A DNA stretch of 64,000 bases from Acidimicrobiaceae bacterium (GTDB lineage Bacteria; Actinomycetota; Acidimicrobiia; Acidimicrobiales; JAUTXP01), in assembly GCA_030837965.1 (NCBI GenBank), contig JAUTXP010000014.1, positions 8,605 through 72,604 of the forward strand, given 5' to 3'. Shown here in pieces: positions 23,475-40,002 of the stretch (its first letter is position 1; each line of letters opens with the position of its first letter). The notes beneath the pieces were generated by a model. It searched no databases and was not told the origin of the DNA. It saw only the letters and a program-made list of their open reading frames with translations. Position numbers and translations under genes: made by a program.

Positions 23475-25181
23475 TTAGCGGCCGCAGGGGGTGGTGAACA
23501 GGCCCGGGTCGCCCTTGCCGTACTGGCCCAGCCTGCGGCGCTTGCCCCCGTCGATGTAGCAGAACCCGCCCTGCTGGCCGTAGTCCTCGCTGGTGAAGCT
23601 CGGGCTCCACCAGATGATGGCCGCGTCCTCCATGAACGAGTGCGTGCCCGGGCTCACCGTCACCTTGCCCGGCATGTTCTTGTGCGGCGGGTTGGGCCAC
23701 TTGGCCCGCATCATCCCGGCCGCGAACGACTCCGGGTTGAGGTGCGGGCCCGCCAACTGCAGCCCGGAGAAGAGCACCAGCATGGCCATGTAGTCCCAGC
23801 GAGCCCCGAAGTACGTGCCCGGCGCATACGGCCACACGAAGCCGGGCTGGATCTCGTTGACGGCCTGCCACCAGAACTCGTCCTCCACCTGGGCCTGCTG
23901 CTTGTTGCGGGTGGAGATGCCGAACGTGTGGGCCGTCTGGGTCTGGGGCTGGGCGCTGATAAACAGGTCCTCGTCGTTGTAGAGGTACCCGGACAGCATG
24001 ATCTCGGGCTGGTAGCCCTGGCTGTCGAGCAGCGAGTAGAGCTGCTTGGTCGTGTTCGAATGGGTCAGCACGATGATCGTGGTGACACCCTTCGACCGCC
24101 AGTCGAACACGGCCGACTGCATCTGCTGCGCGGTGGCGGGCGTGGCCCCCTGCCCGGCCGTGCTGTCCCGCTCCACCTGCACGGTGTGCTCGACGGCGTG
24201 GATGCCGCACGCTTCCAGCGCGGCCTTGGCCGGCCCGTAGTCCGGGGTGGGAGCGTCGGTGTAGCTGTTCTCCAACAGGCCGTAGGAGCGGGGCGTGTTG
24301 ATGAACTCGGGGCCGGCGTGGGCCGCGTTGCCGTCCTTGAGGGCGCAGGCCAACTCGGCCAAGTGGCGGGCCCCCTTGTCGAAGGTGGGCATCATCGTCC
24401 ACTCATACGGATGGTGCTTGGCCAGGTTGTCCTCGTTGGCCGTGTAGGGCCTGCCGTTCACGCTGATCACGCCGCGGTTGGCCAGCTCGTCGTAGTAGTA
24501 GGCCTCGCTGCCCATGATGTCGCAGAAGGACGTGGACGCGAAGACCTGGGCCTTGGCCACCGACCGGGCCGCGTTCTGGGCCACCGAGGGCGACCCGCCG
24601 AAGCACCCGCCAGCCTTGGAGTCGATGGCCTGTCGGCCGTACAGCTCGAAGCGCTTGTTGAAGTAGGCGAGCAGCTTCAAGAACACCGAGTCGTCGGTGT
24701 GGCCGGGGAAGGCCAGCCGGATGGCGTTGGCGTCCACGCCCATTGACGTGACGCCGCCGTTGTCGCCCTCGAAGTACGGCACGCACGGCGGCGACTGGGG
24801 GTCCTCGGTCTGGCGGGGCGGATCGCCCAGGCACGACCGGACCCGCTCGCTGTTGGGGGGCAGCTTGATGGTCGACGTCGTGGTCGGCGGCTTGGGCTGG
24901 CCGGTGGCCGGGTCGATCTCGGCATCGGGTGGACGGGCCGTGCTGTTGCCCGCATCGCCTCCCGCGGCCAGGCCGTTCTCGGCCGACTGCTGCGGGGGCG
25001 CGTCCTTGATGGCCTGCACGGCCTCGGGCGCGTACTCGGCGATGGGCGGGGGCGGCGGCTGGCTGGGGCTCAACGCGGCGATGAGCAGCACGGCCAGCGC
25101 CGCGGCCAGACCGGTGAACACGAAGCCCGGTGCCTTGGCCCCCTTCTTGGGCGGCGGGGTGGTCTCGACGGTCACAGCCAC
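23475..25181 (-). CDS. Membrane-anchored extracytoplasmic protein, possibly a type-I (LivJ-like) solute-binding protein
   Basis: 568 aa with an N-terminal TM anchor (FVFTGLAAALAVLLIAAL) and a Pro/Thr-rich linker followed by a large globular part. The binding-protein assignment is only a guess from context and composition. Confidence 0.6.
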   Translation of the reverse strand: MAVTVETTPPPKKGAKAPGFVFTGLAAALAVLLIAALSPSQPPPPPIAEYAPEAVQAIKDAPPQQSAENGLAAGGDAGNSTARPPDAEIDPATGQPKPPTTTSTIKLPPNSERVRSCLGDPPRQTEDPQSPPCVPYFEGDNGGVTSMGVDANAIRLAFPGHTDDSVFLKLLAYFNKRFELYGRQAIDSKAGGCFGGSPSVAQNAARSVAKAQVFASTSFCDIMGSEAYYYDELANRGVISVNGRPYTANEDNLAKHHPYEWTMMPTFDKGARHLAELACALKDGNAAHAGPEFINTPRSYGLLENSYTDAPTPDYGPAKAALEACGIHAVEHTVQVERDSTAGQGATPATAQQMQSAVFDWRSKGVTTIIVLTHSNTTKQLYSLLDSQGYQPEIMLSGYLYNDEDLFISAQPQTQTAHTFGISTRNKQQAQVEDEFWWQAVNEIQPGFVWPYAPGTYFGARWDYMAMLVLFSGLQLAGPHLNPESFAAGMMRAKWPNPPHKNMPGKVTVSPGTHSFMEDAAIIWWSPSFTSEDYGQQGGFCYIDGGKRRRLGQYGKGDPGLFTTPCGR

Positions 25182-25518: not shown

Positions 25519-26483
25519 CCGCCCGGCACCTGGTTGATGGTGGCCGTGTACTGGCCGGCGACGTCGTCCGCGCCCGCCTTGCCGTGCCACACCACTGACT
25601 CCTGCACGATGAGGCCGCCGTACTGGGTCGCGATCCAGTCCGTGATCTCGGAGTGCACCTGCTGCAACGGGGTGTCCACGTCTTGACTGATGACGACCTG
25701 CCACGCGTCGATGTGCCCGGTGCAGGCCCACACCTTGGACTTGGCCAGGACCTTGCCGTTGACGGTGAAGGTCGTAGCGCTCAACGGGTCGACCGTCGTG
25801 TCCGTCCACGTGGCCCCGACGGTGGCGTCGAGGCTCAACAGCGTCACTGGTTTGGGCGCGTTGAACGAGGGCTGGGCGTCGATGCCCCGGCCCGTGGCCG
25901 ATACGGCCTTGAGCCCCACCGAGCCGGGAACACGGCCGTTGGTGGGCGATGACTGATAGGTGGCCGTCGTCTTGACGCCGAGCACGTCGGACACGAGCTT
26001 GAACGTGACCTGCCCGTCCGGCGTGGCCGAGGAGTTCTGCACGCTGCGGGAGAACGAGCCCACCACCGACTTGCCCTCCACCACACCGTCGATGCGGTAC
26101 GTGTAGTCGCCCGCAGGCGGGGCGCCGCCGAGCGTGCGGGTGGCCTCGAGCTTGGGCGGGGTGACCTGGTCGTCGACGGGGCAGGCGACCACGGGCTGAG
26201 GCACGGGCAGCGGGTCCTCGAACACCGCGGCGGCCCCGTTGCGCTTCCTCACGGGCTCGGCGACGGGGACAACGCCGACGCCACCCAGCACGGGCGCCAG
26301 CACGAAGGGCACGTCCGGGGCGCGGGGATCGTCGGGCGAGGGCTTGCCGAACGACACGTTCACAGGCACCGACTTGCCGCCGAAGGACAGGGACGGCTTG
26401 GGCCCGCCGCAGGCGCTGGTCCCCGCCGCCACCAACGAAAGCGCGGCCAACAGCCGCACGCCGCCGACCCGACCCCGCCTCAC
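25515..26483 (-). CDS. Lipoprotein (322 aa), function unknown
   Basis: GTG 26483 within ORF 25515..27464. Signal sequence VRRGRVGGVRLLAALSLVAAGTSACGG. GTGA overlap with the upstream stop. Beta-rich composition. Confidence 0.7.
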   Translation of the reverse strand: MRRGRVGGVRLLAALSLVAAGTSACGGPKPSLSFGGKSVPVNVSFGKPSPDDPRAPDVPFVLAPVLGGVGVVPVAEPVRKRNGAAAVFEDPLPVPQPVVACPVDDQVTPPKLEATRTLGGAPPAGDYTYRIDGVVEGKSVVGSFSRSVQNSSATPDGQVTFKLVSDVLGVKTTATYQSSPTNGRVPGSVGLKAVSATGRGIDAQPSFNAPKPVTLLSLDATVGATWTDTTVDPLSATTFTVNGKVLAKSKVWACTGHIDAWQVVISQDVDTPLQQVHSEITDWIATQYGGLIVQESVVWHGKAGADDVAGQYTATINQVPGG

Positions 26484-29245
26484 AGCGCGCCCTTCTGGAA
26501 TCGCAGCACCTCGGCCAGCAACTGCTTCGGCGCCGGGTACTCGGGCCGCACTTGCAGGATCTCGAACACGTCGCCCCGCGGCGGGAACCACAGATAGAGC
26601 CGAAGCTCGGACAACTCCTGCACGCCGATCCATTGCCCCTCCATCTTGAACCAGCGGTACTGGCCTGTCTCGATGAACTGGCGGATTCCTCGGCGCACGA
26701 CGATGTCCGTGGTGTCGAACCTGGGCTTGAGCACCGACACCTGGAGCGCGGCCTGCACTTGCGATGTGGACGGCGAGCGCAGGGTCCAGAAAGACCCCTT
26801 GGCCACCATGGACGACGAGCCCGCCTTGCCGAAGGCCTTGGCCGCGCCCGTCTCCTGCGCGGCTCGCAGCGCCAGCACGTCGGCGGGCAGGACGTTGGCG
26901 GGAAGCGGCCCGGCCTGCTTGGCCACTGCCGCGCCCCCGCACGATCCGGTGACCAACGCCAGCACGGTGCCCAGGGCCGGGACCAGGCGGCGCAACAGCC
27001 TGGCCCTGCCCGTGCCGCCTCGCCGCTCTTGGCGCTCGGCTCGACGGTCCGACCTGGCCTTGACCCAGGTGTTGGGCAGGGCCGGGTCGTACGGCCGCCG
27101 CAACGACGCCTTGGCCACCGCGCCCGTCACTTGGGCCACACCCGACTGAGCTCGGGCCAGGCGGCGTCGGAGCGACGCGCTCATGACCTCGGCCGCGTCG
27201 GCGTCGGCGTCGCGCAGGTCGCGGGACAAGTCGCCGTACAGGCCGCGGGTCACCAGCCACGCCAACTCCGCGTGCTCGTCGTCGTCGTCCACCGCCTCCA
27301 GGAACTCCAACGGGGTGGCCGTGGGGTCGCCGATGTTGAGGTCCAACGCCATGTCCCTGAACTCGGCGTAGGCCACGGCCACGCGCGCCCCCGACCCGCG
27401 GGACGTGGCCCAGGCCAGCCGACGACGACGACGCCACAGCTTCAACAGCCACGGCATGGCCCACAGCAGCGCGGCCGCGGCCACCACGAAGGGCAGGGCC
27501 GCGAACACCCAGTAGCGGACCACTTGGAAGAAGAGCAATGGGTTCGGGTTCTGGACCGGGAGATAGATCTGGAGCGACAAGTCCTCACTGGGCCGGACCT
27601 GGTCGTCGATCTTCTTGGACTCGTTGTTGAGCGAGGCCTGGGCCTTCGGGGGCACGCCGACCACCGGCGTCCAGCCCAGGTTGGGGAACCAGACCTCGAG
27701 CCAGTTGGCCCCGTCCTTGGGCCTGAACTCGACGGCCCCGGTGGGCAGCTTGGTGCCGCCCTTGAAGCCGTACCCGATGCGGGCCGGGAGTCCGGCCCAG
27801 CGGGCCAGCAGGGCTTCGGCGGCCACGATCTCGTAGGGCGTGCCTGTCCCGCCTCGAAGCAGTTCGGCCACCTTGGCCCCGTTGATGTCGACGGGGACGC
27901 CCGCGCCCGACGCCACCACGGACGCGTACAGCTTCGAGCGCATGAACTGGAGCCGCTCCCACTGGTTGGTGGGCGCGCCCGCCAGCAGGTCGGACACCAG
28001 CAGCGGCGGCTCGGGCGCCTGGGCGAAACGGGCCACGTCCACCGGCACCGCCCCCACCGCGGCGGCCAACTCGTCACCGGTGGGCGGACGGGCCGCCTCG
28101 ATGGTGTAGCGATAGCCGATGCCGGGCGAGCCCTTGCGCACGCGCAACACCTGGGTCCGCGGGTCGTAGCCCACGTGCCCGCCCGCGCTGCCGATGGACA
28201 CAGGGCTGGCGGGGACGGGCAGGTTGAAGCCGCCGATGTCCTGCACCGTCACCAGTGCCTTGATCGTGGGCCTTCCCAATGGCGCGGGCGGGATGCGGTC
28301 TTGGAAGCGTTTGAGGTCGAGAGGCGGCAGCAGCCATCCGCCCTTGTCGTACTCGTCCAGCACGCCCAGCCGCCACGGGCCCGACGCGTCGACGCCCGAG
28401 TCGGCCTGGACCTCGAACAGGGGCCGGTCCCTCACCTTGTTCAAGGGTTGGATCTGCGGCTTCTGGGGCTTGGCCGACCGGTCCGTCTTGGGCTCCGGGA
28501 ACAGGAGGCTGGCCTGACTCAACGCCCCGACCACGACCAGCGCGGCGCCCACCCCGGCCGCGCCCCGCAGGAGCTGGCGGGCCTCGAACCGCGGCCCGGT
28601 GTCGGCCTCGTCGGCCAACTCGGCGCTGAACGTCATCATCAGCCCGGCCACCAGCAGCACGAGGGCGACGACGCCGGCCAGGACCTCGCCCCCGGTGGGC
28701 TGGCTGAGGGCGGCCGCGATCACGAGGGGCAGGGGGATGAGCAGGGTCAGCTTGGGCCGCTGCAACCCGAGGGCGAGCGATGCGGACGCGGCGCCGATCA
28801 GGGTCAAAAGGGCGACGATGATGAAGCGCCAGCCCGGGTCGAACGGGACCGGCGGCTCGGACAGCCCGCCGTTCTGAATGGCCCTGCGCACCAGTTCGGG
28901 AACGGTGCCGGTCACGCCCGTGTCGTTGGGCAGGATCAGTGCGGCCAGATAGCCGAGGACGAAGGCGCCGGGCACCACGCCGTATTGCAGGACGGGCCGG
29001 TTGCGGCGCACGGCCAGCCACACCCCGCCCACCCCTGCGGCCGCGCCGGCCAGAGCGACCGGCCGGGCCATCCAGCCTTGGAACACGCCGCCCGCCACCC
29101 AGGCCGCGGCCATGGACGCCAACAAGGCGGCCAGCGCCACCCGCCCCGGCCGCGCCACCCCGCCCGCGCCCCCCAAGTCCAACTTTTCCACAGCAGCAGG
29201 TGCTGTGGAAAAGTTCGGGGAGGGCGGTGAGATGGGGGTGGTCAT
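26480..29245 (-). CDS. DUF3488/transglutaminase-like/DUF4129-type membrane protein with extra C-terminal module
   Basis: In ORF 26480..30364. ATG 29245 forms an ATGA overlap with the DUF58 stop; an alternative GTG at 29158 lies downstream of hairpin A3. It has an N-terminal multi-TM region, a TGase-core-like segment (GTPYEIVAAEALLARWAGLPARIGYGF...DGANWLEVWFPNLGW), a late TM helix and then a DUF4129-like tail. Confidence 0.75.
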   Translation of the reverse strand: MTTPISPPSPNFSTAPAAVEKLDLGGAGGVARPGRVALAALLASMAAAWVAGGVFQGWMARPVALAGAAAGVGGVWLAVRRNRPVLQYGVVPGAFVLGYLAALILPNDTGVTGTVPELVRRAIQNGGLSEPPVPFDPGWRFIIVALLTLIGAASASLALGLQRPKLTLLIPLPLVIAAALSQPTGGEVLAGVVALVLLVAGLMMTFSAELADEADTGPRFEARQLLRGAAGVGAALVVVGALSQASLLFPEPKTDRSAKPQKPQIQPLNKVRDRPLFEVQADSGVDASGPWRLGVLDEYDKGGWLLPPLDLKRFQDRIPPAPLGRPTIKALVTVQDIGGFNLPVPASPVSIGSAGGHVGYDPRTQVLRVRKGSPGIGYRYTIEAARPPTGDELAAAVGAVPVDVARFAQAPEPPLLVSDLLAGAPTNQWERLQFMRSKLYASVVASGAGVPVDINGAKVAELLRGGTGTPYEIVAAEALLARWAGLPARIGYGFKGGTKLPTGAVEFRPKDGANWLEVWFPNLGWTPVVGVPPKAQASLNNESKKIDDQVRPSEDLSLQIYLPVQNPNPLLFFQVVRYWVFAALPFVVAAAALLWAMPWLLKLWRRRRRLAWATSRGSGARVAVAYAEFRDMALDLNIGDPTATPLEFLEAVDDDDEHAELAWLVTRGLYGDLSRDLRDADADAAEVMSASLRRRLARAQSGVAQVTGAVAKASLRRPYDPALPNTWVKARSDRRAERQERRGGTGRARLLRRLVPALGTVLALVTGSCGGAAVAKQAGPLPANVLPADVLALRAAQETGAAKAFGKAGSSSMVAKGSFWTLRSPSTSQVQAALQVSVLKPRFDTTDIVVRRGIRQFIETGQYRWFKMEGQWIGVQELSELRLYLWFPPRGDVFEILQVRPEYPAPKQLLAEVLRFQKGAL
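29181..29215. repeat. Hairpin repeat family A, copy 3 (inverted orientation, loop GCAGG)
   Basis: AACTTTTCCACAGCA-GCAGG-TGCTGTGGAAAAGTT lies at the DUF58/TGase-like gene junction on a minus-strand operon. Confidence 0.9.
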
Positions 29246-30450
29246 CGGCGGCCCGCCCCCACTTCGGCCCGGAACACGGCTTCGAGCGACGCCAGCGGCC
29301 GCAGTTGCACGACCTGGCAGCCCAGGGTCGAGGCGAACGCCTGGGTGCGCGGGTCGGAGTCCTCCCACGTGAGGATTACCAGCACCACGTGGGTGCCCCG
29401 GTCGATGAGCAGCTTCAGCCGGGCCGCGGTCTCGCCGTCGAGATGGGGCGTGATGACGACGGTGTGGGCGTTGGCCGCCGCCCCCGCCAGCGTGACCACG
29501 CCCTCGGTCAACCGCTGCTTGCCCCGCTCGACCCGGGCCAGTTCGTCCAGCATCGGGATGCGGCCGGGCTCGTTGCGATAGACCGCGCCCAGCCTGCCGC
29601 CGTTGCCGAACAGCGAGACCGAGAAACCCGTCTTCAAGTGGTGGACGGCCAGCGAGGCGGCCGTCTTGATGGCGGCCTCGAACGTGTCGCTGGGGTCGCC
29701 GGGGGAGTGGGACGACGTGTCCGTGTCGATGAGGATGTGGACCCGGTCGGTGATGCCCTGCTCCGACTCGCGGATGAGCAGCCGGCCGGTGCGGGCCACC
29801 GCCTTCCACACCACCCGCTTCAACTCGTCGCCCCGCACGTAGTCGCGCATGCCGTAGAACTCGAAGCCGCTGGGCCACGGCTTCGACTCCGGCGGCCGGG
29901 TCGGCGGGTCCTCCCACTGCCGGGTGAGCGGACGGTCGTGCACGGCCTCGGTGGCCGGATGCACGATCACCGTGGTGGGCGGCAGCAGTTCGCTGGTCCT
30001 TCGGGTCAGGCCGAACGGGTCGGTCCACACCGCGACCAGCGGCCCGATCTCGTACACCCCCCGCAGCCGGGGCGTGACCGCGTACCGGTGGGGCAGGACG
30101 GTGCCGGGCTGCAAACCGGTCACGGGAACGGTGCGCGTGGTGCCCAAGTGCGGGTGCAACTGCTCCTCCATGAGGAACACGCCCACCCGCCGCTTGGCCG
30201 AGACCGAGACCTCCACCTCCATGCGCTGGCCTTGGCGCAAGCGGGTCGGCACCTCGCTGCGCTCGGCCACCAGGTCGGGCCTGCGCCTGCCCAGGAAGCG
30301 GGCCACTCCCACCACGGCGCCCACGCCGTACACGAGCACGAACAACGTGCGCCCGCCCACCCATCGGGCGAGGAACCAGCAGCCGAACGCGGCGAGGAGC
30401 ACGACGACGCCCGTCGTGGTCAACCCGGTCGCGCTCCGCAGCCGCCGCAT
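29242..30450 (-). CDS. DUF58 domain protein
   Basis: 402 aa with two N-terminal TM helices and the DUF58 hallmark FYGMRDYVRGDELKRVVWKAVARTGRLLIRE. Confidence 0.85.
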   Translation of the reverse strand: MRRLRSATGLTTTGVVVLLAAFGCWFLARWVGGRTLFVLVYGVGAVVGVARFLGRRRPDLVAERSEVPTRLRQGQRMEVEVSVSAKRRVGVFLMEEQLHPHLGTTRTVPVTGLQPGTVLPHRYAVTPRLRGVYEIGPLVAVWTDPFGLTRRTSELLPPTTVIVHPATEAVHDRPLTRQWEDPPTRPPESKPWPSGFEFYGMRDYVRGDELKRVVWKAVARTGRLLIRESEQGITDRVHILIDTDTSSHSPGDPSDTFEAAIKTAASLAVHHLKTGFSVSLFGNGGRLGAVYRNEPGRIPMLDELARVERGKQRLTEGVVTLAGAAANAHTVVITPHLDGETAARLKLLIDRGTHVVLVILTWEDSDPRTQAFASTLGCQVVQLRPLASLEAVFRAEVGAGRR

Positions 30451-30457
30451 GCCCGGG

Positions 30458-31509
<1,052 letters not shown>

Positions 31510-31510
<1 letters not shown>

Positions 31511-34500
31511 CAGGTGGTGCTCCTCTTCTCGACGGACTCGATCTTCTCGACGGACTCGATCTTCTCGACACGCCCGGCGTTCTCGGCAGGCCCGGTAACG
31601 GCGGGCGTGCCCGACCGGGCCAGGACCCGCTGGGACGTCCCCAGGTAGGCCTCCACCATCCGGGGGTCCTCGGTGACGTCGGTGACCGAGCCCTCGATGA
31701 TCGTCTGGCCCCTCACCATGCCGACCATGCGGTCGGCGATACCAGTCAGGAGCCGCATGTCGTGCTCGATCACCAGCAGCCCGCAACCAGTCTCCCTGCG
31801 GACGCGGTCGAGCACGGGCCCCAGCTCTTCGGCCTCGGCCTGGGCGATGCCGGACGACGGCTCGTCCAGCAACAGCACATCTGGATCGGCGGCCATCTCA
31901 CACGCCAGGTCGACGATGCGACGCGACCCGGTGGACAGCTCGGACACGAACTTCTCGCGGTAGTCGCCCAGGCCCAGCAGTTCGATGAGGCCCTCGGCGC
32001 GGGACCGCAGCTTGCGCTCGGCCCTTCGCACCTGGGGCAGCCACAGGGCCGACAACGCGGCCGAGCGGGAGGCGGCCGTGTGGCGCTCCATGGCCACGGT
32101 GATCGTCTCCAAGACGGTGAGCGACGGGAACAGGCGGGCGTCCTGGAACGACCGGCCCAGGCCCAGGCGGGCCCGCTGGTCCGGCGCCATGGCGGTGACG
32201 TCCTTGCCGCCAATGAGGATGCGTCCAGTGTCGACCGGGACGAAGCCGGACACGGCGTCGAACAAGGTGGTCTTGCCTGCGCCGTTGGGGCCGATCACGC
32301 CCACGATCTCGCCCGCCGCGACCTGGATGGTGGCGCCCGCCAACGCCTTCACGCCGCCGTACGAGACGTGCACGTCCTCGGCCTGCATGGCGGGCACACG
32401 GTCGGGCGCGGTGTCGATGTACGAGCGCAGCCGGGCGGGCACGGCCTGGCCCCCGGACGTGCCCTTCAGATAGACGGAGCGCAGGATGTCGGGCCGGGCC
32501 AACAGGTCGGCCGTCGGGCCGGAGAACCGGACCTCGCCCTTCTCCATGAACACGGCCCGCTCGGCCACGCTCAAGGCGATGTTGACCGACTGCTCGACCA
32601 GGATGATGGCCGTCCCCGACGCGTGGATCTCCTCCACCGCCCGCAACAACTGCTCCACGATGGCGGGTGCCAGCCCGAGCGACAGCTCGTCGATCAACAG
32701 CACCTTGGGCCGCATGATGAGCGCTTGGCCCAAGGCGACCATCTGCTGCTCGCCGCCGGATAGGGCGCCCGCGGCCAGGTCCATGCGCTCGCGCAATGCG
32801 GGGAACAGCGTGAGGACGCGCTCGACGCGCCCATCCAGGTCGTCGGCGTCGATCCAGCCCGCGGCCGCCAGGTTCTCGGCCACGGACAGGGCGGGGAACA
32901 CGCCCTTGCCGCCCGGCATCTGCACGATGCCGAAGCGGGCCAACTCATGGGGCGGCGTGTAGGTGATGTCGCGCTCGTCCATGTAGATGGCGCCGCCGGT
33001 GGTCGGGGCCAAGCCGCTGATGGCCCGCAGCAGCGTGGACTTGCCCGCCCCGTTGGTGCCGAGCAGGGCGACCAGCTCACCCTCCTCCACCTCGAAGTCC
33101 ACGCCGAACAGAACCTGCACGCCGTCGTAGTGCACGTCCACCTTGCGACAGATCAACAGCTTGGCCCGGCCGGAGTCGTGCGACCTGGCCATCTCCTCCT
33201 CGGCCAGCGCCGCGTGCCGCGCGTCGGCGATGTCCTTGCCCACGTCCACCGACGCGGTCAGCAGGATGAGGGTGCCGATGGACAGCAGGGGCAGGGCGAA
33301 GAGCAAGGAGTTGTGGATGGCGTTGGCGCCCCCGGTGACGGCCACGGCCAACGGCAGGCTCAACAGGCCGATGAGGCCGAACAGCGGGGGAAGCTGCATG
33401 CCGAACGAGCGCAGTCGGGCGGGGACGACGAGCGACATCAACGTGTCTCGCGCCGCGATCGGAGTGGCCGAGAAGGCGGGCTGGGCCAAGGCCAGCACCA
33501 ACGCGATCCACCGGTTGCCGACGAACGCCAGCACGAGGATGGCGGCCACGTTGAAGACGTTGATGAGGCCGAGGAACGTCATGACCCGGCCAGGCTTCTC
33601 ACCTAGAAGCCGGTCGACGAGGGTGCCGCCGAAGGACAGTCCCATGCCCACCATCAACTGCTGCGCGCCCTGCATCAGGGCGACCGACAGGGGCGAGATA
33701 CCCGCGGTGCGGCTGATGATGACGAGCAACAGCGGGAGCAGCACAGGCCCGCCCGCGCTGAGGAACACCTGGGCGTAGGCCACCCGCCGCAGCGTGCGCA
33801 CGGACATGGCCCCGCGCAACGACTCGCCGAAGCTCGGATGCTGCTGCTCGCGCGACGCCACGTCCTCGCTGACACCGAGGCGCAGGCGATCCCATCGGCC
33901 GCGGGGCGGCTCCCTCAGCGTGAACCACGGGACCGCGCCTGCCAGCGCGACCACACCGGTGACGAGGATGGCCACCCGCCAGCCGAACACGGTGGCGAGG
34001 GCGCCGCCCGCGATGGCGCCGGGGATGAGGGCGGTGGCCGCGAACGCGGCCTTGGCGCCGATCACCCGGCCTCTGATCTCTGGGGGGTAGTAGTCGGCCA
34101 GCAGCGGCGCAGTGGTGGCCACCGAGATGGGGCCGAAGCCGCCCAGCGTGTCGTGGGTGATCTTCATGATCACCAAGCCGATGATCCCCGGCCAGATGCC
34201 GAAGACCAAGGCCATCACGGCCCAGATCAGCGCCGTCACCGCGCTGATGGCGACGCGCGACAAGCGGTCGGCGAAGTAGCCGGCGAAGGGCCCGATGGCG
34301 GCGCCGAAGAACGCGAACAGACCACCCACGCCGACCAACGCCGAGTCGCTGATGCCCAGGTCGCGCCGGATCACCAGGAAGCTGGCGTTGAACGTCCCGG
34401 CGAAAATGCCTTGGGTCATGCCGCTGAGGACCATGACCCAGAAGGGCCACGAGGACTGGCCGCTCTCGGCGATGCGGGGGTTGGCGTCGTGCACGAAGCG

Positions 34501-34641
34501 AACGAGGCGCTCCTTCAACGACGGCCGGGGTGGCCGGGACGCGCCCTGTTCGGGCCTCGGCGCGTCGATGGCGTCGACCGCCTCCATGCCGAGCGCCCGT
34601 TCGCGTTCGGAGGGGACGGGCGGGCGCAGGACGTCGGTCAT
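31510..34641 (-). CDS. Tri-domain fusion: MFS transporter domain + LivF-like ATPase + LivG-like ATPase (1043 aa)
   Basis: ATG 34641 within ORF 31510..35202, in an ATGA overlap with the upstream permease. Residues about 60-465 are 12-TM MFS-like (GYFADRLSRV motif A). NBD1 has GTNGAGKST, LSGGEQQM and LLIDELSLGLAP. NBD2 has GPNGAGKTT, LSTGSRR and LLLDEPSSG. Confidence 0.85.
31525..31569. repeat. 18-nt tandem repeat, 2.5 copies (CTTCTCGACGGACTCGAT)
   Basis: Seen directly. It encodes (VEKIES)x2-VEK at the extreme C-terminus of the MFS-ABC fusion protein. Confidence 0.9.
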
Positions 34642-36893
34642 TGCCTGCCTCGGGCATGCGCGGCGACGCGAGGGACAGTGAGCGGGCGGCGGGGCAGGCG
34701 GTAGCGCGCGGGAAGCTCGATGGGGCTCCCGTCGGCCCTGACCTTGGGATGGATGGCCGCCTTCTCCTCGCCCGCGAACACGCGCCCGTCGGCCAACAGG
34801 CTGGGCACGCGGATGCGGTTGCGCACCGCGATGCGCCGCAGCAGCGCGTCCCTCCCTGCGAACACGGCCTGGGTCAGCCCGCCGGGGACGAAGGCCAGGA
34901 TGACGAGCACCAGCGCGGCGCTGAACACGCCCACGAAGGCGGGCACGAAGATGGTGAGCCCGCCCACCATGAAGGCTCCGAGCAACGGCCCTGCGATCGA
35001 ACCCAGCCCGCCGATCACGACCATGAGGAACATGGTGAGGCTGACCTCGGGCGAGAAGTTGCCGGGGGCGATGCCGCCCTGCTGGTAGGCGAACAGCCCA
35101 CCCGCCATGGCCGCGATGAGGCCCGCCACTGCGAACGTCTCCAGCCGGGCCCGAACCAGGTTGATGCCGAACGACTGGGCGGCGCGGTCGTTGTCCCTGC
35201 ACGCGATCAAAGCCCGGGCCGTGCGGCTTCGGCGCATGCCCACCACGGCCACCGTCACCAGGCCCAGCAAGGCCAAGGCCAAGTAGTAGAAGACGGTCTC
35301 GTTGGACGCGTCGAGCCCGAAGATGGAAGGCCGCTCGATGGTGGAGGGCACGAGCCTGCCGCCGTAGCGCTCACCGAGCAGCACGTTGGTGACGGCCACG
35401 GCGAAGGCCAGCGTGGTGACGGCCAGGTACAGGCCGCGGATGCGCAGCGCGGGCAGGCCCACCACGACCGAGGCCAGCGCGCCGAGCAGGCCCGCCAGCG
35501 GCAGGGCGATGAGGAACGGCAAGCCGAGCTTGGCCCCGAACAAGGCCACGCCCCACCCGCCGATGGCGGCGAAGGCGAACTGGCCCAGCGAGATGAGGCC
35601 CGCCCAACCGGTGAGCAGCAGCAGCGAAAGACCGACGATCCCGTAGAGCAGCATCACCGTTCCGCTGGCGGTCTGGCTGGGCGACATGATGAACGGGAAG
35701 CCGACCACGATGAGGCCGAGGCCAATGGTGACGCGCCTGCGCAGTCGGGCCACGTCCTTCTGGCCTCGCAATTCCGCGGGAACGGGCCGCACCTCTCGGG
35801 CCGCGATCCATGACCCGCCGGTCGGGTCGACGCGCCCGGCGCGGGGCACGGGGCGCAGCAGCAGGAAGGCGAGCAGGAGGCCGAACACGACCAGGTCGAG
35901 GATGGTGGCGTTGCCGAACGACCACAGGAAGCTTTGGTCGAGCACGGCCAGTCCGAGCACGGCCAACAGGGCGAGAGGCAGGTTGACCATTCCGGCGATG
36001 ACCGCCGCGGCCAGGACGCGCACCAAGGTCCCCGCCGCCGCGCCGCCCGCGCCGCCGCCGTTGGCCATCACCGCCAACACGCCGGCCAGACCGGACAGCA
36101 GCCCGGCCATGGTCCACACGGTGGCGCCCACCATGGTGACGTTGACGCCGAGCGACGCGGCCCGGTCCGGGTTCTCGGCCGCGGCCCGAACGGCCACGCC
36201 GGTCCGCGTCCTGCGCAGGAACCACACGATGCCGACCAAGGCGACGACGGCGGCCACCACCGCGGCCACGTCGGCCGTGTTGAACACGGCGGGGGAGATG
36301 GTGAAGCGGATGTGCACCGGTGCGGGGATGACGCCGCCCGGCTCCTTGTCCTTGAACCACCCCGGCACCCGGCTGGCGGCCCACGTCATCACCTGGGCCA
36401 CGGCGATGGTGGCCACGGTGCCGACCAACGGAGGGGCGTCCCTGAAGCGGCGAATGACGAACAGGTAGGTGAGCAGGCCGAACACGGCGGAGATGAAGAT
36501 GGCGGTCAGCGCCGCGGTCCAGTACTCGGCCTGCACCATCCACGGCGACACCCGCCGGTTCAGGCAGTTGCACACCACGTTGGTGGCGATGAGCAGGGTG
36601 TGGCGCTTGACCAGTTCGAAGAACAACAGGCTGCCGAAGGCGCCCAGTTGGATCTGGGCGATGTTGATGACACGGCTGCTGCGGTAGACGAGGACCACGC
36701 CGGTAACGGCCAGGGCGGCCCGGCTGGCGAACACGCCAGCGCTCAGTCCGATGCCGAACGGCAGGCCTCGCGGGAACAGCGCGGCAGCCACGAAGACCAC
36801 GCCGATGAGGGCGGCGGCCAGCGCGTCGGGGCGGCGGGCGAGCGCGCCGAGTCGGGCGCGCAGGCCTGTGCCGTCAGACGAGTGTGCTGCCAC
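34638..36893 (-). CDS. Fused LivH-LivM type branched-chain amino acid (HAAT family) ABC permease
   Basis: 751 aa. The N-terminal half is LivH-like (RAAAENPDRAASLGVNV) and the C-terminal half is LivM-like (ACRDNDRAAQSFGINL). It has many TM helices. Confidence 0.85.
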   Translation of the reverse strand: MAAHSSDGTGLRARLGALARRPDALAAALIGVVFVAAALFPRGLPFGIGLSAGVFASRAALAVTGVVLVYRSSRVINIAQIQLGAFGSLLFFELVKRHTLLIATNVVCNCLNRRVSPWMVQAEYWTAALTAIFISAVFGLLTYLFVIRRFRDAPPLVGTVATIAVAQVMTWAASRVPGWFKDKEPGGVIPAPVHIRFTISPAVFNTADVAAVVAAVVALVGIVWFLRRTRTGVAVRAAAENPDRAASLGVNVTMVGATVWTMAGLLSGLAGVLAVMANGGGAGGAAAGTLVRVLAAAVIAGMVNLPLALLAVLGLAVLDQSFLWSFGNATILDLVVFGLLLAFLLLRPVPRAGRVDPTGGSWIAAREVRPVPAELRGQKDVARLRRRVTIGLGLIVVGFPFIMSPSQTASGTVMLLYGIVGLSLLLLTGWAGLISLGQFAFAAIGGWGVALFGAKLGLPFLIALPLAGLLGALASVVVGLPALRIRGLYLAVTTLAFAVAVTNVLLGERYGGRLVPSTIERPSIFGLDASNETVFYYLALALLGLVTVAVVGMRRSRTARALIACRDNDRAAQSFGINLVRARLETFAVAGLIAAMAGGLFAYQQGGIAPGNFSPEVSLTMFLMVVIGGLGSIAGPLLGAFMVGGLTIFVPAFVGVFSAALVLVILAFVPGGLTQAVFAGRDALLRRIAVRNRIRVPSLLADGRVFAGEEKAAIHPKVRADGSPIELPARYRLPRRPLTVPRVAAHARGRQ

Positions 36894-37091: not shown

Positions 37092-38450
37092 GTGCCGGGA
37101 GGACTTTCGCCCCGCCAGGTCGCCAATCAGCTCGAGCGATGCTTTCGCGCCGAGGCCGACTTCCTGCGCGTCCTGGGGGCGTGGACCGGACGGGTGGTCG
37201 AGAACGACGAGCGGCTGGCCCTGGCCCGAGACGTCGGTTGGCGGGCCGAGCATGCCGACGCCCTGCGTCTGCGCCTGACCCGGCTGCGCACCACCGACCG
37301 CATGATCCACGTGCCGTCGGCCGAGTGGCGGCACCTGGTCGAGCTGGTGGACGACGCGCCGGGCACGGACGAGCTGATCGCCGCGGTCTATCGCGTCGTG
37401 GTGCCCGCCCTCATCGACGCTTACGAGCGGCTGGCCGCCGAGTGCGATCCGCTGGCCGACGAGCTGACCATCCGGCTGGTGGAGCGCGAGCTGCTCCCCG
37501 ACCATCGCGAGCGGACGGTGTGGGCCGAGTGGTTCCTGGCGGGCCGTTCGCCCGACCCTGCATACGTCGATCAGGTGGCGGACGCGTTGGAGGCCGCGGG
37601 CGGCTTGGTCGTGCGCAGCGACGCCGTCCCCGACGACCGCGACGACGAGCAGGCCGACTTGGGCACAGGCTTTTGGCCGCTGCCGCGGGCCAACGTGGAT
37701 CGCATCGAGTTGGGCCGCGAGTACCGCATCGCGGCGGACGGCGAGCCGTTGTCGTACTGCCCGACCTTCGAGGAGTTCGGCCCGCGTGAGGTCGAGGTGC
37801 TCGTCGTGCATCACGGCCTCATGCCGGAGATCGCGTCGCTGTGCATCATCGGCGCCCTCTTGCACGAGGTGCCGGACCGGCCCTGGGCCTTCTACCGCGA
37901 CTTCGCCACCCAGTGCGCCGACGAGGTCCGCCACATCGGGCTGCTGCTGCGACGGCTCACCGAGTTGGACAGCGGGCCCGATGCCCACGCCTTCCCCACG
38001 TGGACCTTCTATGACGCGGTCGCCTTTTTGCCCGCCCGCGAACGCACGCTGGTGTTCAACGCCGTGGTCGAGGGCAACGTGGTCGAGACCCTGCACGAGC
38101 GGGCCGCGGCGTTGGAGCGGGCGGGCAGCCCCGAGAGCGCCTACGTCATGGACTGGATCTCGGCCGACGAGTCCCTTCATCTGCACAACGGGATGGCCTG
38201 GCTGGCCGACGGTGGCGCCGACGTGGACACGCTGCTCGACATGGGACAGGCCCTGTTGGGCGAGGTCATGCGCCAGAAGGGCGCCACCGAGAAGGTGTTC
38301 GACTCGGCGTCGGAGTCGTTGAGCAAGGGCAACTTCTACGCCCCTCGCAAGAACCCGGTGGCCCCCATCGCCCGTGAGTTGGGCGGGTTCTCCAAACCAC
38401 AGATCGACCGGCTCATCGAGTCGGCCGACGGCCGCACCATTCGGCGGTAG
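37092..38450 (+). CDS. Ferritin-like di-iron protein (DUF455-like C-terminal half) with about 220-aa N-terminal extension
   Basis: 452 aa with ExxH motifs (ADEVRHIGLL, ADESLHLHNG) and upstream Glu residues (MPEIASL, VVETLHE) in a helical context. Confidence 0.6.
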   Translation: MPGGLSPRQVANQLERCFRAEADFLRVLGAWTGRVVENDERLALARDVGWRAEHADALRLRLTRLRTTDRMIHVPSAEWRHLVELVDDAPGTDELIAAVYRVVVPALIDAYERLAAECDPLADELTIRLVERELLPDHRERTVWAEWFLAGRSPDPAYVDQVADALEAAGGLVVRSDAVPDDRDDEQADLGTGFWPLPRANVDRIELGREYRIAADGEPLSYCPTFEEFGPREVEVLVVHHGLMPEIASLCIIGALLHEVPDRPWAFYRDFATQCADEVRHIGLLLRRLTELDSGPDAHAFPTWTFYDAVAFLPARERTLVFNAVVEGNVVETLHERAAALERAGSPESAYVMDWISADESLHLHNGMAWLADGGADVDTLLDMGQALLGEVMRQKGATEKVFDSASESLSKGNFYAPRKNPVAPIARELGGFSKPQIDRLIESADGRTIRR

Positions 38451-40000: not shown

Positions 40001-40002
40001 CG

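What the first reader, a model, noticed from the sequence alone, without database searches (positions are those of the whole stretch)
31510..34641. Single polypeptide combining a 12-TM MFS domain with two different ABC ATPase domains (LivF-like then LivG-like)
The 1043-aa ORF has no internal stop.
- Residues about 60-465 show MFS features: a motif-A-like GYFADRLSRV, six plus six hydrophobic helices and a central cytoplasmic loop.
- Residues about 495-735 are a LivF-type NBD (GTNGAGKST, LSGGEQQM, LLIDELSLGLAP).
- Residues about 760-1010 are a LivG-type NBD (GPNGAGKTT, RSFQDARLF, LLLDEPSSG), with a non-canonical signature LSTGSRR.
Secondary (MFS) and primary (ABC) transport machinery are normally separate. 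Here an MFS fold is covalently tethered to the heterodimeric ATPase pair, which should dock on the LivHM permease encoded immediately upstream. Three roles are possible: the MFS domain is a second translocation path, a substrate sensor (transceptor), or an anchor.
Basis: partly seen in the sequence, partly recalled or inferred. Interest (0 to 1): 0.75.

Follow-up and report, generated by a model that had tools for sequence, protein, structure and literature searches.

The report
MFS domain fused to ABC ATPases
One gene really does join a complete 12-helix secondary-transporter (MFS) domain to the two ATPase subunits of a Liv-type ABC importer; the fusion is conserved in dozens of uncultured Actinomycetota and one cultured strain, but what the MFS part does is untested.

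Summary
**Observation: confirmed.** Window 31510-34641 (-) is an uninterrupted 1043-aa gene. It encodes a Spinster-like 12-TM MFS domain (residues 65-462), a helical linker, a LivF-type NBD (494-724), a disordered linker and a LivG-type NBD (750-1002). Its ATG overlaps the stop codon of a fused LivH-LivM permease gene.

**Not an assembly artefact.**
- About 32 clusters at 42-76% identity share the architecture.
- At least 45 clusters at the 50% level carry it.
- About 47 species-level genomes have the MFS-LivF junction. Most are Acidimicrobiia MAGs; one is a cultured Dactylosporangium.

**Three gene arrangements exist, and all keep MFS fused to LivF.**

**A complete importer is present.** A divergent, membrane-anchored LivJ-type binding protein is the conserved third gene; in the window it lies at 23475-25181. 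The MFS is therefore an extra module on a complete HAAT-type importer.

**Features of the MFS domain.**
- Every invariant MFS residue lies on the cytoplasmic face.
- The central loop and the TM12-to-NBD1 helix are conserved and confidently modelled.
- The cavity charges of Spinster (D41, R42, E129) are missing in the window's subclade.

**Interpretation.** I favour an allosterically coupled accessory module (about 0.4) over an independent co-transporter or a passive anchor.

**Literature.** Six full-text searches found no description of this fusion.

**Verdict.** New variant of a known kind, of moderate to high interest.

The parts
31510..34641 (-). Whole gene for the 1043-aa MFS-LivF-LivG fusion protein, stop codon included.
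   Evidence: Uninterrupted ORF. ATGA overlap with the upstream gene. Pfam MFS_1 plus two ABC_tran. Full-length homologues P0001-P0032.
34450..34641 (-). N-terminal cytoplasmic extension, residues 1-64. Poorly conserved, with one short helix at 42-53.
   Evidence: 12 K/R residues. Conservation 0.28. Low pLDDT except for helix 42-53.
33256..34449 (-). 12-TM MFS domain, residues 65-462, Spinster-like. Motif A is GYFADRLSR, with D125 and R129 invariant; the DYYPPEIRGR motif is also present.
   Evidence: Family and PDB sequence matches. Structure models and Foldseek. Conservation and alignment blocks. Alignment to the bacterial Spinster homologue 6e8j.
33799..33918 (-). Central cytoplasmic loop between TM6 and TM7, residues 242-281. 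It is the most conserved stretch of the MFS part.
   Evidence: Conservation 0.60 against 0.46-0.47 for the TM halves. Invariant P245, R247, G248 and R276. pLDDT 88-94.
33163..33255 (-). Helical extension of TM12 linking the MFS to NBD1, residues 463-493.
   Evidence: Continuous helix 441-489 in the domain model. pLDDT 84-92 in the full model. Invariant D470 and conservation 0.48.
32470..33162 (-). NBD1, LivF/UrtE-type, residues 494-724. Walker A GTNGAGKST, signature LSGGEQQM, Walker B IDELSLGL, and VEQS in place of the H-loop His.
   Evidence: Family matches. Motif comparison.
32395..32469 (-). Disordered, poorly conserved linker between the two NBDs, residues 725-749.
   Evidence: pLDDT below 50 over residues 723-746. 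Conservation 0.35.
31636..32394 (-). NBD2, LivG/UrtD-type, residues 750-1002. Walker A GPNGAGKTT, Q-loop RSFQ, signature LSTGSRR, Walker B LLLDEPSSG, H-loop IEHD.
   Evidence: Family matches. Motif comparison.
31513..31635 (-). Disordered C-terminal tail, residues 1003-1043, containing an 18-nt tandem repeat that encodes VEKIES 2.6 times.
   Evidence: Translation. Low pLDDT over residues 1002-1043. Tandem repeat at 31524-31569 with 100% matches.
34638..36893 (-). Partner gene: a 751-aa fused LivH+LivM permease, the transmembrane domains of the ABC importer.
   Evidence: Two BPD_transp_2 stretches. UrtB-like and LivM/UrtC-like halves. The exact sequence is NCBI MDQ1437157.1 from an Acidimicrobiaceae MAG. 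The same pairing with a 4-nt overlap occurs in L001, L002, L003 and L008.
23475..25181 (-). Candidate cognate substrate-binding protein, 568 aa: N-terminal TM anchor, Pro/Thr-rich linker, then a divergent LivJ-type globular domain.
   Evidence: No Pfam hit. Homologues flank the transporter genes in the related loci. BLASTP E 4e-11 to a Peripla_BP_6 protein. The family profile hits PDB 4n0q, a Leu/Ile/Val-binding protein homologue, at E 9e-5. Sequence.
26480..31510 (-). MoxR AAA+ (30458-31510), DUF58 (29242-30450) and TgpA-type transglutaminase (26480 to about 29245). They are translationally chained to the fusion gene. Whether they belong to the system is unknown.
   Evidence: Pfam assignments. 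TGATG overlap with the fusion gene's stop. Terminator-like hairpin at 26459-26441. The same trio is next to the transporter in L001 and L003; DUF58 and TgpA matches lie upstream of it in L009 and L012.

Best explanation
**Shown by the analysis.** The gene encodes the energising subunit of a HAAT-family (LivHMGF/Urt-type) binding-protein-dependent ABC importer built from few polypeptides:
- an anchored LivJ-like binding protein (23475-25181);
- a fused LivH-LivM permease (34638-36893);
- a fused LivF-LivG ATPase pair, modelled as a canonical NBD dimer.

A complete Spinster-like 12-TM MFS domain is covalently attached to the N-terminus of LivF. The MFS is an addition to a complete importer, because the nearest relatives are LivH-LivM-LivF-LivG single chains that lack it.

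**Inferred mechanism.**
- With N- and C-termini both inside the cell, the MFS sits in the membrane beside LivHM, one copy per transporter.
- It is tied to NBD1 by a rigid helical extension of TM12 and by a structured, conserved central loop.
- It keeps the motif-A gating network (D125, R129, R344, R411), so it can probably still switch between inward-facing and outward-facing states.
- In this subclade it has lost the buried charges that Spinster proteins use for proton and substrate handling.

I therefore think it most likely acts as an allosterically coupled accessory module. Either its conformational or ligand state modulates the LivF/LivG ATPase, like a transceptor or a membrane-embedded counterpart of the regulatory domains of MalK, MetN and NrtC. 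Or the nucleotide state of the NBDs gates a facilitator pathway through the MFS. The substrate is unknown.
For: **Architecture and partner.**
- Domain composition and LivHM partner.
- In the full-length model the two NBDs superpose on tandem-NBD chains of M. tuberculosis OppD and DppD and the MCR A2 component, with TM-score normalised by target length of 0.53-0.69.
- Both NBDs keep the Walker A Lys and the Walker B Asp-Glu.

**Completeness of the importer.**
- The binding-protein homologue lies directly downstream of the fusion gene in at least 15 loci.
- It is LivJ-like.

**Conservation of the fusion.**
- 32 full-length cluster representatives.
- 45 of the top 150 representatives at the 50% clustering level have two Walker A motifs.
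- About 47 species genomes carry the junction.

**MFS-LivF is the invariant unit across three gene arrangements.**
- [LivHM][MFS-F-G].
- [LivHM][MFS-F][G].
- [MFS-F][LivHM-G].
- Evidence: - No locus was found with the MFS as a separate gene beside Liv genes.

**Evidence for coupling.**
- All 14 invariant MFS-part residues lie at the cytoplasmic face or in the linker.
- The central loop is the most conserved part of the MFS (0.60) and has pLDDT 88-94.
- The TM12-NBD1 linker is a confident helix carrying invariant D470. By contrast, the NBD1-NBD2 linker is disordered with conservation 0.35.

**Loss of cavity charges.** In the window's subclade the equivalents of HnSpns D41, R42 and E129 are F/A, A/G and G. 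An E129 equivalent is present in only 1 of 32 family members.
Against: - No experiment has been done.
- No coordinates or PAE were available, so a contact between the MFS loop and NBD1 or LivHM is inferred, not seen.
- Cytoplasmic-face conservation (motif A) is normal for any working MFS.
- About half of the family keeps the TM1 Asp, 9 of 32 keep the Arg, and most members keep a GxxxGPxxGG-like TM5 motif. These features fit a genuine transporter.
- A fusion can be selected simply for 1:1 co-expression.
- The NBD motifs do not differ between MFS-fused proteins and their MFS-less relatives, so nothing in the ATPase marks it as specially regulated.
Confidence: 0.4

Rival explanations
1. **Independent but co-localised secondary transporter.** The MFS domain works as an ordinary carrier for the same or a related solute (a low-affinity, high-capacity route beside the high-affinity ABC route), or for a by-product that must leave the cell. 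Fusion to LivF only guarantees 1:1 stoichiometry and co-regulation, with no conformational cross-talk.
For: - The 12-TM fold is complete and the motif-A residues are invariant.
- Motif-B Arg or Lys is present in 26 of 32 members and the TM1 Asp in 15 of 32.
- A motif-C-like GxxxGPxxGG occurs in TM5 of most members.
- A complete stand-alone relative exists: P0156, 470 aa, in L007.
- The MFS part diverges about as fast as the binding protein: 24-29% against 19-27% identity across the family.
Against: - The window's subclade lacks the TM1 Asp-Arg pair, and almost the whole family lacks the TM4 Glu that Spinster proteins use.
- No buried residue is conserved across the family.
- No unfused gene-neighbour version was found in about 47 loci, which would be surprising if co-expression alone were enough.
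- The linker is a conserved, rigid helix rather than a floppy tether.
Confidence: 0.3
2. **Passive membrane anchor or assembly scaffold.** The MFS is a degenerate former transporter. It only holds the LivF-LivG pair at the membrane next to LivHM, replacing the covalent LivM-LivF link of the single-chain ancestors.
For: - The nearest outgroups are single-chain LivH-LivM-LivF-LivG proteins, so splitting the chain would remove a tether.
- The cavity charges are lost in the window's subclade.
- The TM helices are only moderately conserved, at 0.46-0.47.
Against: - A 400-residue, 12-helix anchor is extravagant. Ordinary Liv NBDs need no anchor.
- The motif-A gating network on both halves is invariant over a 42-76% identity range (D125, R129, R344 at 30 of 32, R411). 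That is not expected for an inert anchor.
- In class II the LivG NBD is already tethered to LivM, yet the MFS is still kept on LivF.
Confidence: 0.15
3. **ATP-driven MFS.** The LivF/LivG dimer directly powers alternating access of the MFS domain, giving a true hybrid primary/secondary pump. LivHM would be a second client or a stator.
For: - The helix between TM12 and the first strand of NBD1 is rigid.
- The proton-coupling Glu equivalent is absent family-wide: 1 of 32.
- The cytoplasmic loop is conserved.
Against: - A full LivHM permease and a binding protein always accompany the fusion, which is what a normal ABC importer needs.
- MFS domains have no coupling helices for the NBD Q-loop groove.
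- Only one NBD is attached to the MFS.
- The NBD motifs are identical to those of MFS-less relatives.
Confidence: 0.05
4. **Artefact.** Assembly chimera or frameshift that joined a separate MFS gene to livF/livG.
For: The window appears to come from a metagenome-assembled genome. Read coverage could not be inspected.
Against: - The same continuous ORF is found in independent ENA, JGI, NCBI and Logan assemblies at 42-76% identity.
- It occurs in closed MAG chromosomes (OY762975.1, OZ242341.1) and in the complete genome of the cultured Dactylosporangium sp. CA-233914.
- Codon-position GC is uniform along the ORF.
Confidence: 0.01

Closest known systems
HAAT-family ABC importers (TC 3.A.1.4: LivJ/K-LivHMGF, UrtABCDE, BraDEFG)
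   Same: - Two BPD_transp_2 membrane domains.
- A LivG-type and a LivF-type NBD forming a heterodimer.
- A type-I (LivJ-like) binding protein.
- The best NCBIfam models for each NBD are LivF/UrtE and LivG/UrtD.
   Different: - All scores are far below the equivalog cut-offs, for example LivF 194 against 441 and UrtE 197 against 285.8, so the substrate cannot be transferred.
- The subunits are fused: H-M, and F-G in F-then-G order.
- The binding protein is about 570 aa, TM-anchored and invisible to Pfam.
- A 12-TM MFS domain sits on LivF, which no characterised member has (own knowledge, plus the null literature searches).
Single-chain LivH-LivM-LivF-LivG proteins (P0033 1238 aa, P0034 1244 aa, P0045 1100 aa; uncharacterised)
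   Same: - They are the closest relatives of the NBD pair: 57% and 49% identity, in the same F-then-G order.
- They share the same motif variants: QMPGG, VEQS and LSTGxRR.
- The P0033 membrane part is 38% identical to the window's LivHM.
- An SBP-like gene lies next to them.
   Different: - They have no MFS domain; LivM runs directly into LivF.
- In an NJ tree of NBD pairs P0034 and P0045 are outgroups and P0033 sits at the base of the MFS clade. This suggests the MFS was inserted between LivM and LivF. The tree has no support values.
Bacterial Spinster homologue HnSpns (PDB 6e8j) and the Spns / SLC17-ACS branch of the MFS
   Same: - It is the best PDB sequence hit for the window's MFS domain (E 5.9e-8) and for a relative (E 1.5e-17).
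- Shared signatures are ADRxxRV (motif A), NSLxxDYYPPxxR and GWRxxF...EPxRG.
- The best Foldseek hits are Spns1, Spns2 and DgoT.
- The best NCBIfam model is TIGR00893 (ACS) over the full length.
   Different: - In the window protein D41, R42 and E129 of HnSpns correspond to F80, A81 and G167; only R122 is conservatively kept, as K160.
- Identity is about 17-19%.
- The TIGR00893 score is 54.7 against a cut-off of 395.
- Spinster proteins are stand-alone, whereas this domain carries two NBDs.
ABC importer NBDs with fused regulatory domains (MalK, MetN C2, ModC, NrtC with an NrtA-like domain, OpuA CBS), from own knowledge
   Same: An extra ligand-responsive or signal-responsive domain is covalently attached to the NBD and modulates ATPase activity (trans-inhibition, inducer exclusion). 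This is the functional analogy I favour.
   Different: - Those domains are soluble and C-terminal; here the added domain is a 12-TM membrane protein at the N-terminus.
- There is no sequence relationship.
- The analogy is an inference and was not tested.
Tandem-NBD subunits of M. tuberculosis OppABCD and DppABCD (PDB 8j5r_D, 8wdb_D)
   Same: Two NBDs in one chain form the ATPase dimer of a binding-protein-dependent importer. They are among the best structural matches of the full-length model, with TM-score normalised by target length of 0.53-0.67.
   Different: They belong to a different ABC importer family (peptide/opine type, with BPD_transp_1 permeases) and have no membrane domain on the NBD chain.

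Membership tests
Major facilitator superfamily (Pfam MFS_1 / CL0015) | Profile match above the curated threshold. | tested here: met
   PF07690 at 76.2 bits against a cut-off of 33.4, E 2.9e-21.
Major facilitator superfamily (Pfam MFS_1 / CL0015) | Twelve TM helices as two six-helix bundles joined by a cytoplasmic loop, with both termini inside. | tested here: met
   The AF2 models show 6+6 helices at residues 65-241 and 282-462, with pTM 0.84. Foldseek hits are MFS only. K/R-rich N-terminus and central loop.
Major facilitator superfamily (Pfam MFS_1 / CL0015) | Motif A (GxxxDRxGRR) in the TM2-TM3 loop. | tested here: met
   GYFADRLSRV, with D125 and R129 invariant in 32 of 32 sequences.
Spinster-like MFS (TC 2.A.1.49; HnSpns 6e8j) | Family sequence signatures around the TM4-TM5 loop (DYxPPxxRG) and after TM6 (EPxRG). 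| tested here: met
   LLADYYPPEIRGR and LREPPRGR are present. The alignment of a family member to 6e8j shows both motifs.
Spinster-like MFS (TC 2.A.1.49; HnSpns 6e8j) | Buried charged residues of the cavity: TM1 Asp41-Arg42 and TM4 Arg122 and Glu129. Their roles are taken from own knowledge of the HnSpns paper. | tested here: not met
   The window has F80, A81, K160 and G167 at these positions. Across the family: D in 15 of 32, R in 9 of 32, R or K in 26 of 32, E in 1 of 32.
Anion:cation symporter family (NCBIfam TIGR00893, 2.A.1.14) | Score above the curated subfamily cut-off. | tested here: not met
   54.7 bits against a cut-off of 395, although the alignment spans the full length. Relatives score 84-86 bits.
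ABC ATPase (Pfam ABC_tran) | Walker A, Q-loop, LSGGQ signature, Walker B with catalytic Glu, and H-loop, in each NBD. | tested here: met
   - NBD1: GTNGAGKST, LSGGEQQM, IDELS, and VEQS (Gln in place of His in the H-loop).
- NBD2: GPNGAGKTT, RSFQ, LSTGSRR (deviant signature), LLLDEPS and IEHD.
LivF / LivG equivalogs (NF008626, NF008449) | Score above the equivalog cut-off for each isolated NBD. | tested here: not met
   NBD1 scores 194.3 against 441. NBD2 scores 191.9 against 362.
Urea transporter UrtE / UrtD equivalogs (TIGR03410, TIGR03411) | Score above the equivalog cut-off for each isolated NBD. | tested here: not met
   NBD1 scores 197.2 against 285.8. NBD2 scores 189.8 against 304.1. The whole-protein score of 316.7 is the sum of two NBDs and is misleading.
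HAAT-family ABC importer system (TC 3.A.1.4) | Two BPD_transp_2 membrane domains encoded with the NBDs. | tested here: met
   The 751-aa upstream protein has two BPD_transp_2 stretches and a 4-nt gene overlap with the fusion gene. The pairing is conserved in all related loci examined.
HAAT-family ABC importer system (TC 3.A.1.4) | Cognate type-I (LivJ / Peripla_BP_6) binding protein. | tested here: inconclusive
   The window's 568-aa candidate has no Pfam hit. It is homologous to a Peripla_BP_6 protein at E 4e-11. The family profile hits PDB 4n0q at E 9e-5. The Dactylosporangium counterpart hits Peripla_BP_6 at E 3e-22. Ligand binding and docking were not tested.
HAAT-family ABC importer system (TC 3.A.1.4) | ATP-dependent, binding-protein-dependent uptake of a defined solute. 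| not testable with these tools
   This needs transport and ATPase assays.

The most novel reading that the evidence does not exclude
The MFS-LivF fusion is a true hybrid of primary and secondary transport. Under this reading, nucleotide binding or hydrolysis at the LivF/LivG dimer is mechanically transmitted through the rigid TM12 extension and the conserved central loop. It gates or drives alternating access of a Spinster-like MFS that has lost its proton-coupling residues. Alternatively, the MFS state gates the ATPase. Either way, one complex would integrate an ATP-driven pathway and a facilitator pathway. That would be a kind of energy coupling not described for either superfamily.
Probability: 0.25. 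Interest if true: 0.9.

Novelty: new variant of a known kind. Interest (0 to 1): 0.62.

Why it matters
MFS carriers and ABC transporters are the two largest transporter superfamilies, and they are normally treated as mechanistically separate. A fusion of the two has been kept over deep divergence: 42-76% identity, three gene arrangements, and two classes of Actinomycetota. This implies a selected functional link between an alternating-access carrier and an ATPase motor.

Working out that link could reveal one of three things:
- a new mode of regulating ABC importers by a membrane-embedded sensor;
- ATP-gating of an MFS;
- a built-in dual-affinity uptake device in abundant soil and marine Acidimicrobiia.

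The system is now experimentally approachable, because a class II version is present in a cultured strain with a complete genome (Dactylosporangium sp. CA-233914, NZ_CP192030.1, locus L070).

The analysis also uncovers a large family of LivJ-type binding proteins that current Pfam models miss.

Tried and rejected
1. **Assembly or frameshift artefact.** Rejected on recurrence in independent assemblies and complete genomes.
2. **Urea transporter.** The UrtE score exceeded its cut-off, but that score sums two NBDs. Isolated NBDs fall well below the cut-offs, and no urease genes lie nearby.
3. **No binding protein, so the MFS replaces it.** Rejected once the unannotated 568-aa ORF proved homologous to SBP-like genes flanking the relatives.
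4. **Many stand-alone MFS relatives.** Most representatives without a Walker A turned out to be truncated or frameshifted fragments of fusions. Only P0156 was confirmed as a complete stand-alone gene.
5. **6e8j misidentified.** I first took 6e8j for DgoT. It is the bacterial Spinster homologue; DgoT is 6e9n/6e9o.
6. **Literature.** Six full-text searches for MFS-ABC or NBD fusions found nothing relevant. The library lacks most subscription-journal papers, and TCDB could not be queried.
7. **Exact look-up of the fusion protein.** It failed with two start choices, although the neighbouring LivHM is present as MDQ1437157.1.
8. **Faulty MoxR query.** My MoxR query was built from an out-of-frame slice and found nothing. 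MoxR's presence in the window, L001 and L003 rests on Pfam tables instead; for L009 and L012 only DUF58 and TgpA were detected.
9. **Inter-domain contacts.** They could not be read from the AF2 model because no coordinates or PAE are returned.
10. **dN/dS and DCA.** Neither was attempted. The sequences are too diverged for dN/dS and too few for DCA.

Full report
**1.

The window has about 70% G+C. On the minus strand, 31510-34641 is an uninterrupted ORF of 1043 codons.
- Its ATG at 34641 overlaps the TGA of the preceding ORF as ATGA, with a GAGG nine bases upstream.
- Third-position G+C of 0.88-0.93 marks this ORF and the upstream one as the coding frames.
- Pfam finds MFS_1 (E 2.9e-21, above threshold) and two ABC_tran domains.
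- NCBIfam best matches the first NBD to UrtE/LivF models (residues 495-727). It best matches the second to UrtD/LivG models (752-1002).
- The upstream 751-aa protein carries two BPD_transp_2 stretches, so it is a fused LivH+LivM permease.

**2. The MFS part is a complete, well-folded MFS domain**

- Pfam matches only the N-terminal half. NCBIfam TIGR00893 aligns residues 90-462 to positions 19-397 of 399.
- AlphaFold2 on an alignment of 32 homologues gives pLDDT 81.1 and pTM 0.68 for the whole protein. For residues 1-490 alone it gives pLDDT 88.0 and pTM 0.84.
- The modelled domain order is:
  - six helices (65-241);
  - a structured loop (242-281);
  - six helices (282-462);
  - a helix continuing from TM12 to residue 489;
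  - NBD1 (494-724);
  - a disordered linker (723-746);
  - NBD2 (750-1000);
  - a disordered tail.
- The N-terminus and the central loop are rich in Lys and Arg. This fits an N-in, C-in topology that puts both NBDs in the cytoplasm.
- Foldseek against the PDB returns only MFS transporters, led by Spns1, Spns2, DgoT and NorA.
- The full-length model best matches chains with two NBDs: MCR component A2 and M. tuberculosis OppD and DppD, with TM-score normalised by target length of 0.53-0.69. The two NBDs are therefore modelled as an ordinary head-to-tail dimer.

**3. It is not an artefact, and it is not rare**

- A word-indexed search of 5.8 billion proteins returned about 32 cluster representatives of 957-1084 aa. 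They are 42-76% identical over more than 85% of the query, and all carry PF07690 plus PF00005. They come from ENA, JGI, NCBI and Logan assemblies.
- An exhaustive HMMER search with the MFS domain alone against 1.84 billion representatives at the 50% clustering level gave 284 hits below 1e-10.
  - Of the best 150, 45 have two Walker A motifs and 28 have one.
  - Many of the rest are truncated or frameshifted pieces of fusions.
- A scan of one genome per species (185,579 species) with a junction-spanning alignment (A3) found about 47 loci with the MFS-LivF junction.
  - Nearly all are MAGs of Acidimicrobiia: Microthrixaceae, Ilumatobacteraceae, Iamiaceae, Acidimicrobiaceae and Ca. Poriferisocius.
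  - They include closed chromosomes.
  - One is the cultured Dactylosporangium sp. CA-233914.
- The window's LivHM is identical to NCBI MDQ1437157.1 from an Acidimicrobiaceae MAG.

**4. Gene context shows a complete importer plus an extra MFS**

The LivHM gene precedes the fusion gene with a 4-nt overlap in the window and in L001, L002, L003 and L008.

The binding protein:
- No binding protein is annotated near the window's genes.
- The unannotated 568-aa ORF at 23475-25181 (-) is homologous to three proteins:
  - the protein directly upstream of the MFS-less relative P0033 (E 8e-25);
  - the protein directly downstream of the fusion in L002 (E 1e-18);
  - a Peripla_BP_6 protein next to P0034 (E 2e-9).
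- BLASTP to that Peripla_BP_6 protein gives E 4e-11.
- In at least 15 loci this protein is encoded immediately after the fusion gene.
- A profile of 25 members hits the Leu/Ile/Val-binding protein homologue 4n0q at E 9e-5.
- It has an N-terminal TM anchor and a Pro/Thr-rich linker.

The system therefore has every part of a HAAT-type ABC importer. The MFS is additional.

**5. The invariant unit is MFS-LivF**

An ORF-level HMM survey of the fetched loci shows three arrangements.

| Class | Arrangement | Loci |
|---|---|---|
| I (the window) | [LivH-LivM] then [MFS-LivF-LivG] then SBP | about 25 |
| Split LivG | [LivH-LivM] then [MFS-LivF] then [LivG] | L008, L011 and others |
| II | [MFS-LivF, about 735 aa] then [LivH-LivM-LivG, about 950 aa], with the SBP before or after | about 19, including Dactylosporangium |

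- Pfam confirmed class II in L045 and L070.
- In none of these loci is the MFS a separate gene.

**6. Likely origin**

- The nearest relatives of the NBD pair are single-chain LivH-LivM-LivF-LivG proteins: P0033, P0034 and P0045.
  - P0033 and P0034 are 57% and 49% identical to the window's NBD pair.
  - All three keep the same F-then-G order and the same motif variants, including LSTGxRR.
- In an NJ tree of NBD pairs P0045 and P0034 are outgroups, and P0033 lies at the base of the MFS clade. The tree has no support values.
- The simplest reading is that an MFS gene was inserted between LivM and LivF of a single-chain ancestor. This is an inference.

**7. What the MFS domain looks like in detail**

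Family affinity:
- Its best sequence match in the PDB is the bacterial Spinster homologue 6e8j.
- A less diverged family member matches 6e8j at E 1.5e-17. They share ADRxxRV, NSLxxDYYPPxxR and GWRxxF...EPxRG.

Conservation:
- All 14 invariant residues of the MFS part lie at the cytoplasmic face or in the linker: P66, D125, R129, L180, D183, Y185, R190, P245, R247, G248, R276, R285, R411 and D470.
- No buried charged residue is conserved.
- Mean column conservation by region:

| Region | Conservation |
|---|---|
| NBDs | 0.70-0.75 |
| Central loop | 0.60 |
| TM halves | 0.46-0.47 |
| MFS-NBD1 linker | 0.48 |
| NBD1-NBD2 linker | 0.35 |

- The central loop and the MFS-NBD1 linker are also confidently modelled, with pLDDT 84-94. 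The inter-NBD linker is not.

Cavity charges:
- At the positions of HnSpns D41, R42, R122 and E129, the window has F80, A81, K160 and G167.
- Its whole subclade (window and P0001-P0011) lacks the Asp, the Arg and the Glu.
- The other subclade mostly keeps D (15 of 32 in the family) and sometimes R (9 of 32).
- The Glu is present in only 1 of 32.
- The functional roles of those HnSpns residues are taken from my own knowledge of the published structure.

**8. The NBDs look catalytically competent**

- Both NBDs keep the Walker A Lys and the Walker B Asp-Glu.
- NBD1 has Gln where the H-loop His would be, in VEQS. That this is typical of LivF is my own knowledge.
- NBD2 has the deviant signature LSTGSRR.
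- None of these features distinguishes MFS-fused proteins from their MFS-less relatives.
- Taken separately, the NBDs score far below the LivF, LivG, UrtE and UrtD equivalog cut-offs. No substrate can be assigned.

**9. Mechanism**

*Shown:* composition, partners, conservation and topology.

*Inferred:*
- One MFS per transporter sits next to LivHM. It is tied to NBD1 by a rigid helix and a structured loop.
- Retention of the motif-A network argues for a domain that still changes conformation.
- Loss of the cavity charges argues against ordinary proton-coupled Spinster-type transport in this protein.

I therefore rank the explanations as follows:

| Explanation | Confidence |
|---|---|
| Allosterically coupled accessory module (sensor-like control of the ATPase, or nucleotide-gated facilitator) | about 0.4 |
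| Independent co-localised carrier | about 0.3 |
| Passive anchor or scaffold | about 0.15 |
| Directly ATP-driven MFS | about 0.05 |
| Artefact | below 0.01 |

None of these can be decided without structures or assays.

**10. Novelty**

- Public annotation pipelines already label such proteins, for example 'ABC-type branched-chain amino acid transport system ATPase component/predicted MFS family arabinose efflux permease' at JGI and 'MFS transporter' at NCBI.
- Six full-text searches found no paper describing or testing an MFS-ABC NBD fusion.
- I class it as a new variant of a known kind: a HAAT ABC importer carrying a covalently attached Spinster-like MFS.

Noticed in passing
window 26480-31510 (-); also L001, L003, L009, L012: MoxR AAA+ ATPase, DUF58 and a TgpA-type transglutaminase follow the fusion gene. 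The MoxR ATG overlaps the fusion gene's stop (TGATG), and a terminator-like hairpin follows TgpA at 26459-26441. The trio is also downstream of the transporter pair in L001 and L003. In L009 and L012, DUF58 and TgpA matches lie upstream of it on the same strand; MoxR was not checked there. The association recurs, but its meaning is unknown.
   Followed up: partly
window 23475-25181 (-); alignment A4: This is a family of binding-protein-like proteins of about 570 aa: N-terminal TM anchor, Pro/Thr-rich linker, conserved Cys residues and a GDNGG motif. Pfam does not detect it. It is linked to LivJ-type proteins only through intermediate sequences and a weak profile hit to PDB 4n0q. It probably represents an undescribed branch of Peripla_BP_6.
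   Followed up: partly
window 31524-31569 (-): A perfect 18-nt tandem repeat (2.6 copies) encodes VEKIES repeats in the disordered C-terminal tail of the fusion protein. The tail is not conserved in homologues.
   Followed up: partly
window 37092-38450 (+); L001 4214-5572; L007 4887-5708: A DUF455 (ferritin-like) gene is divergently transcribed from the transporter operon in the window and in L001. A DUF455 gene also lies three genes from the stand-alone MFS relative P0156 in L007. This may be coincidence.
   Followed up: no
P0033 (L004 8001-11717), P0034 (L006 8001-11735), P0045: These are entire HAAT ABC importers (LivH-LivM-LivF-LivG) encoded as single polypeptides of 1100-1244 aa, each with an SBP-like gene next to it. 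The architecture is unusual in its own right.
   Followed up: partly
P0246 (573 aa): Its first 50 residues match the C-terminal tail of LivM (window LivHM residues 668-732) and run in frame into the MFS domain. It may be a variant in which LivHM, MFS and NBDs form one chain, or it may be a gene-calling artefact.
   Followed up: no
L032 708-3977 and 7563-10886; L011 and L034 (same MAG, CAWJWI01): Some genomes carry two copies of the MFS-LivF-LivG fusion. In L032 the two copies are only about 3.6 kb apart. This suggests paralogous systems, possibly with different substrates.
   Followed up: no
window 38454-41850 (+): The divergent neighbouring cluster (SDR, esterase, GH35 beta-galactosidase) is syntenic with L001, which is 70% identical in the fusion protein. 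It is absent from more distant loci, so it gives no reliable clue to the substrate.
   Followed up: partly
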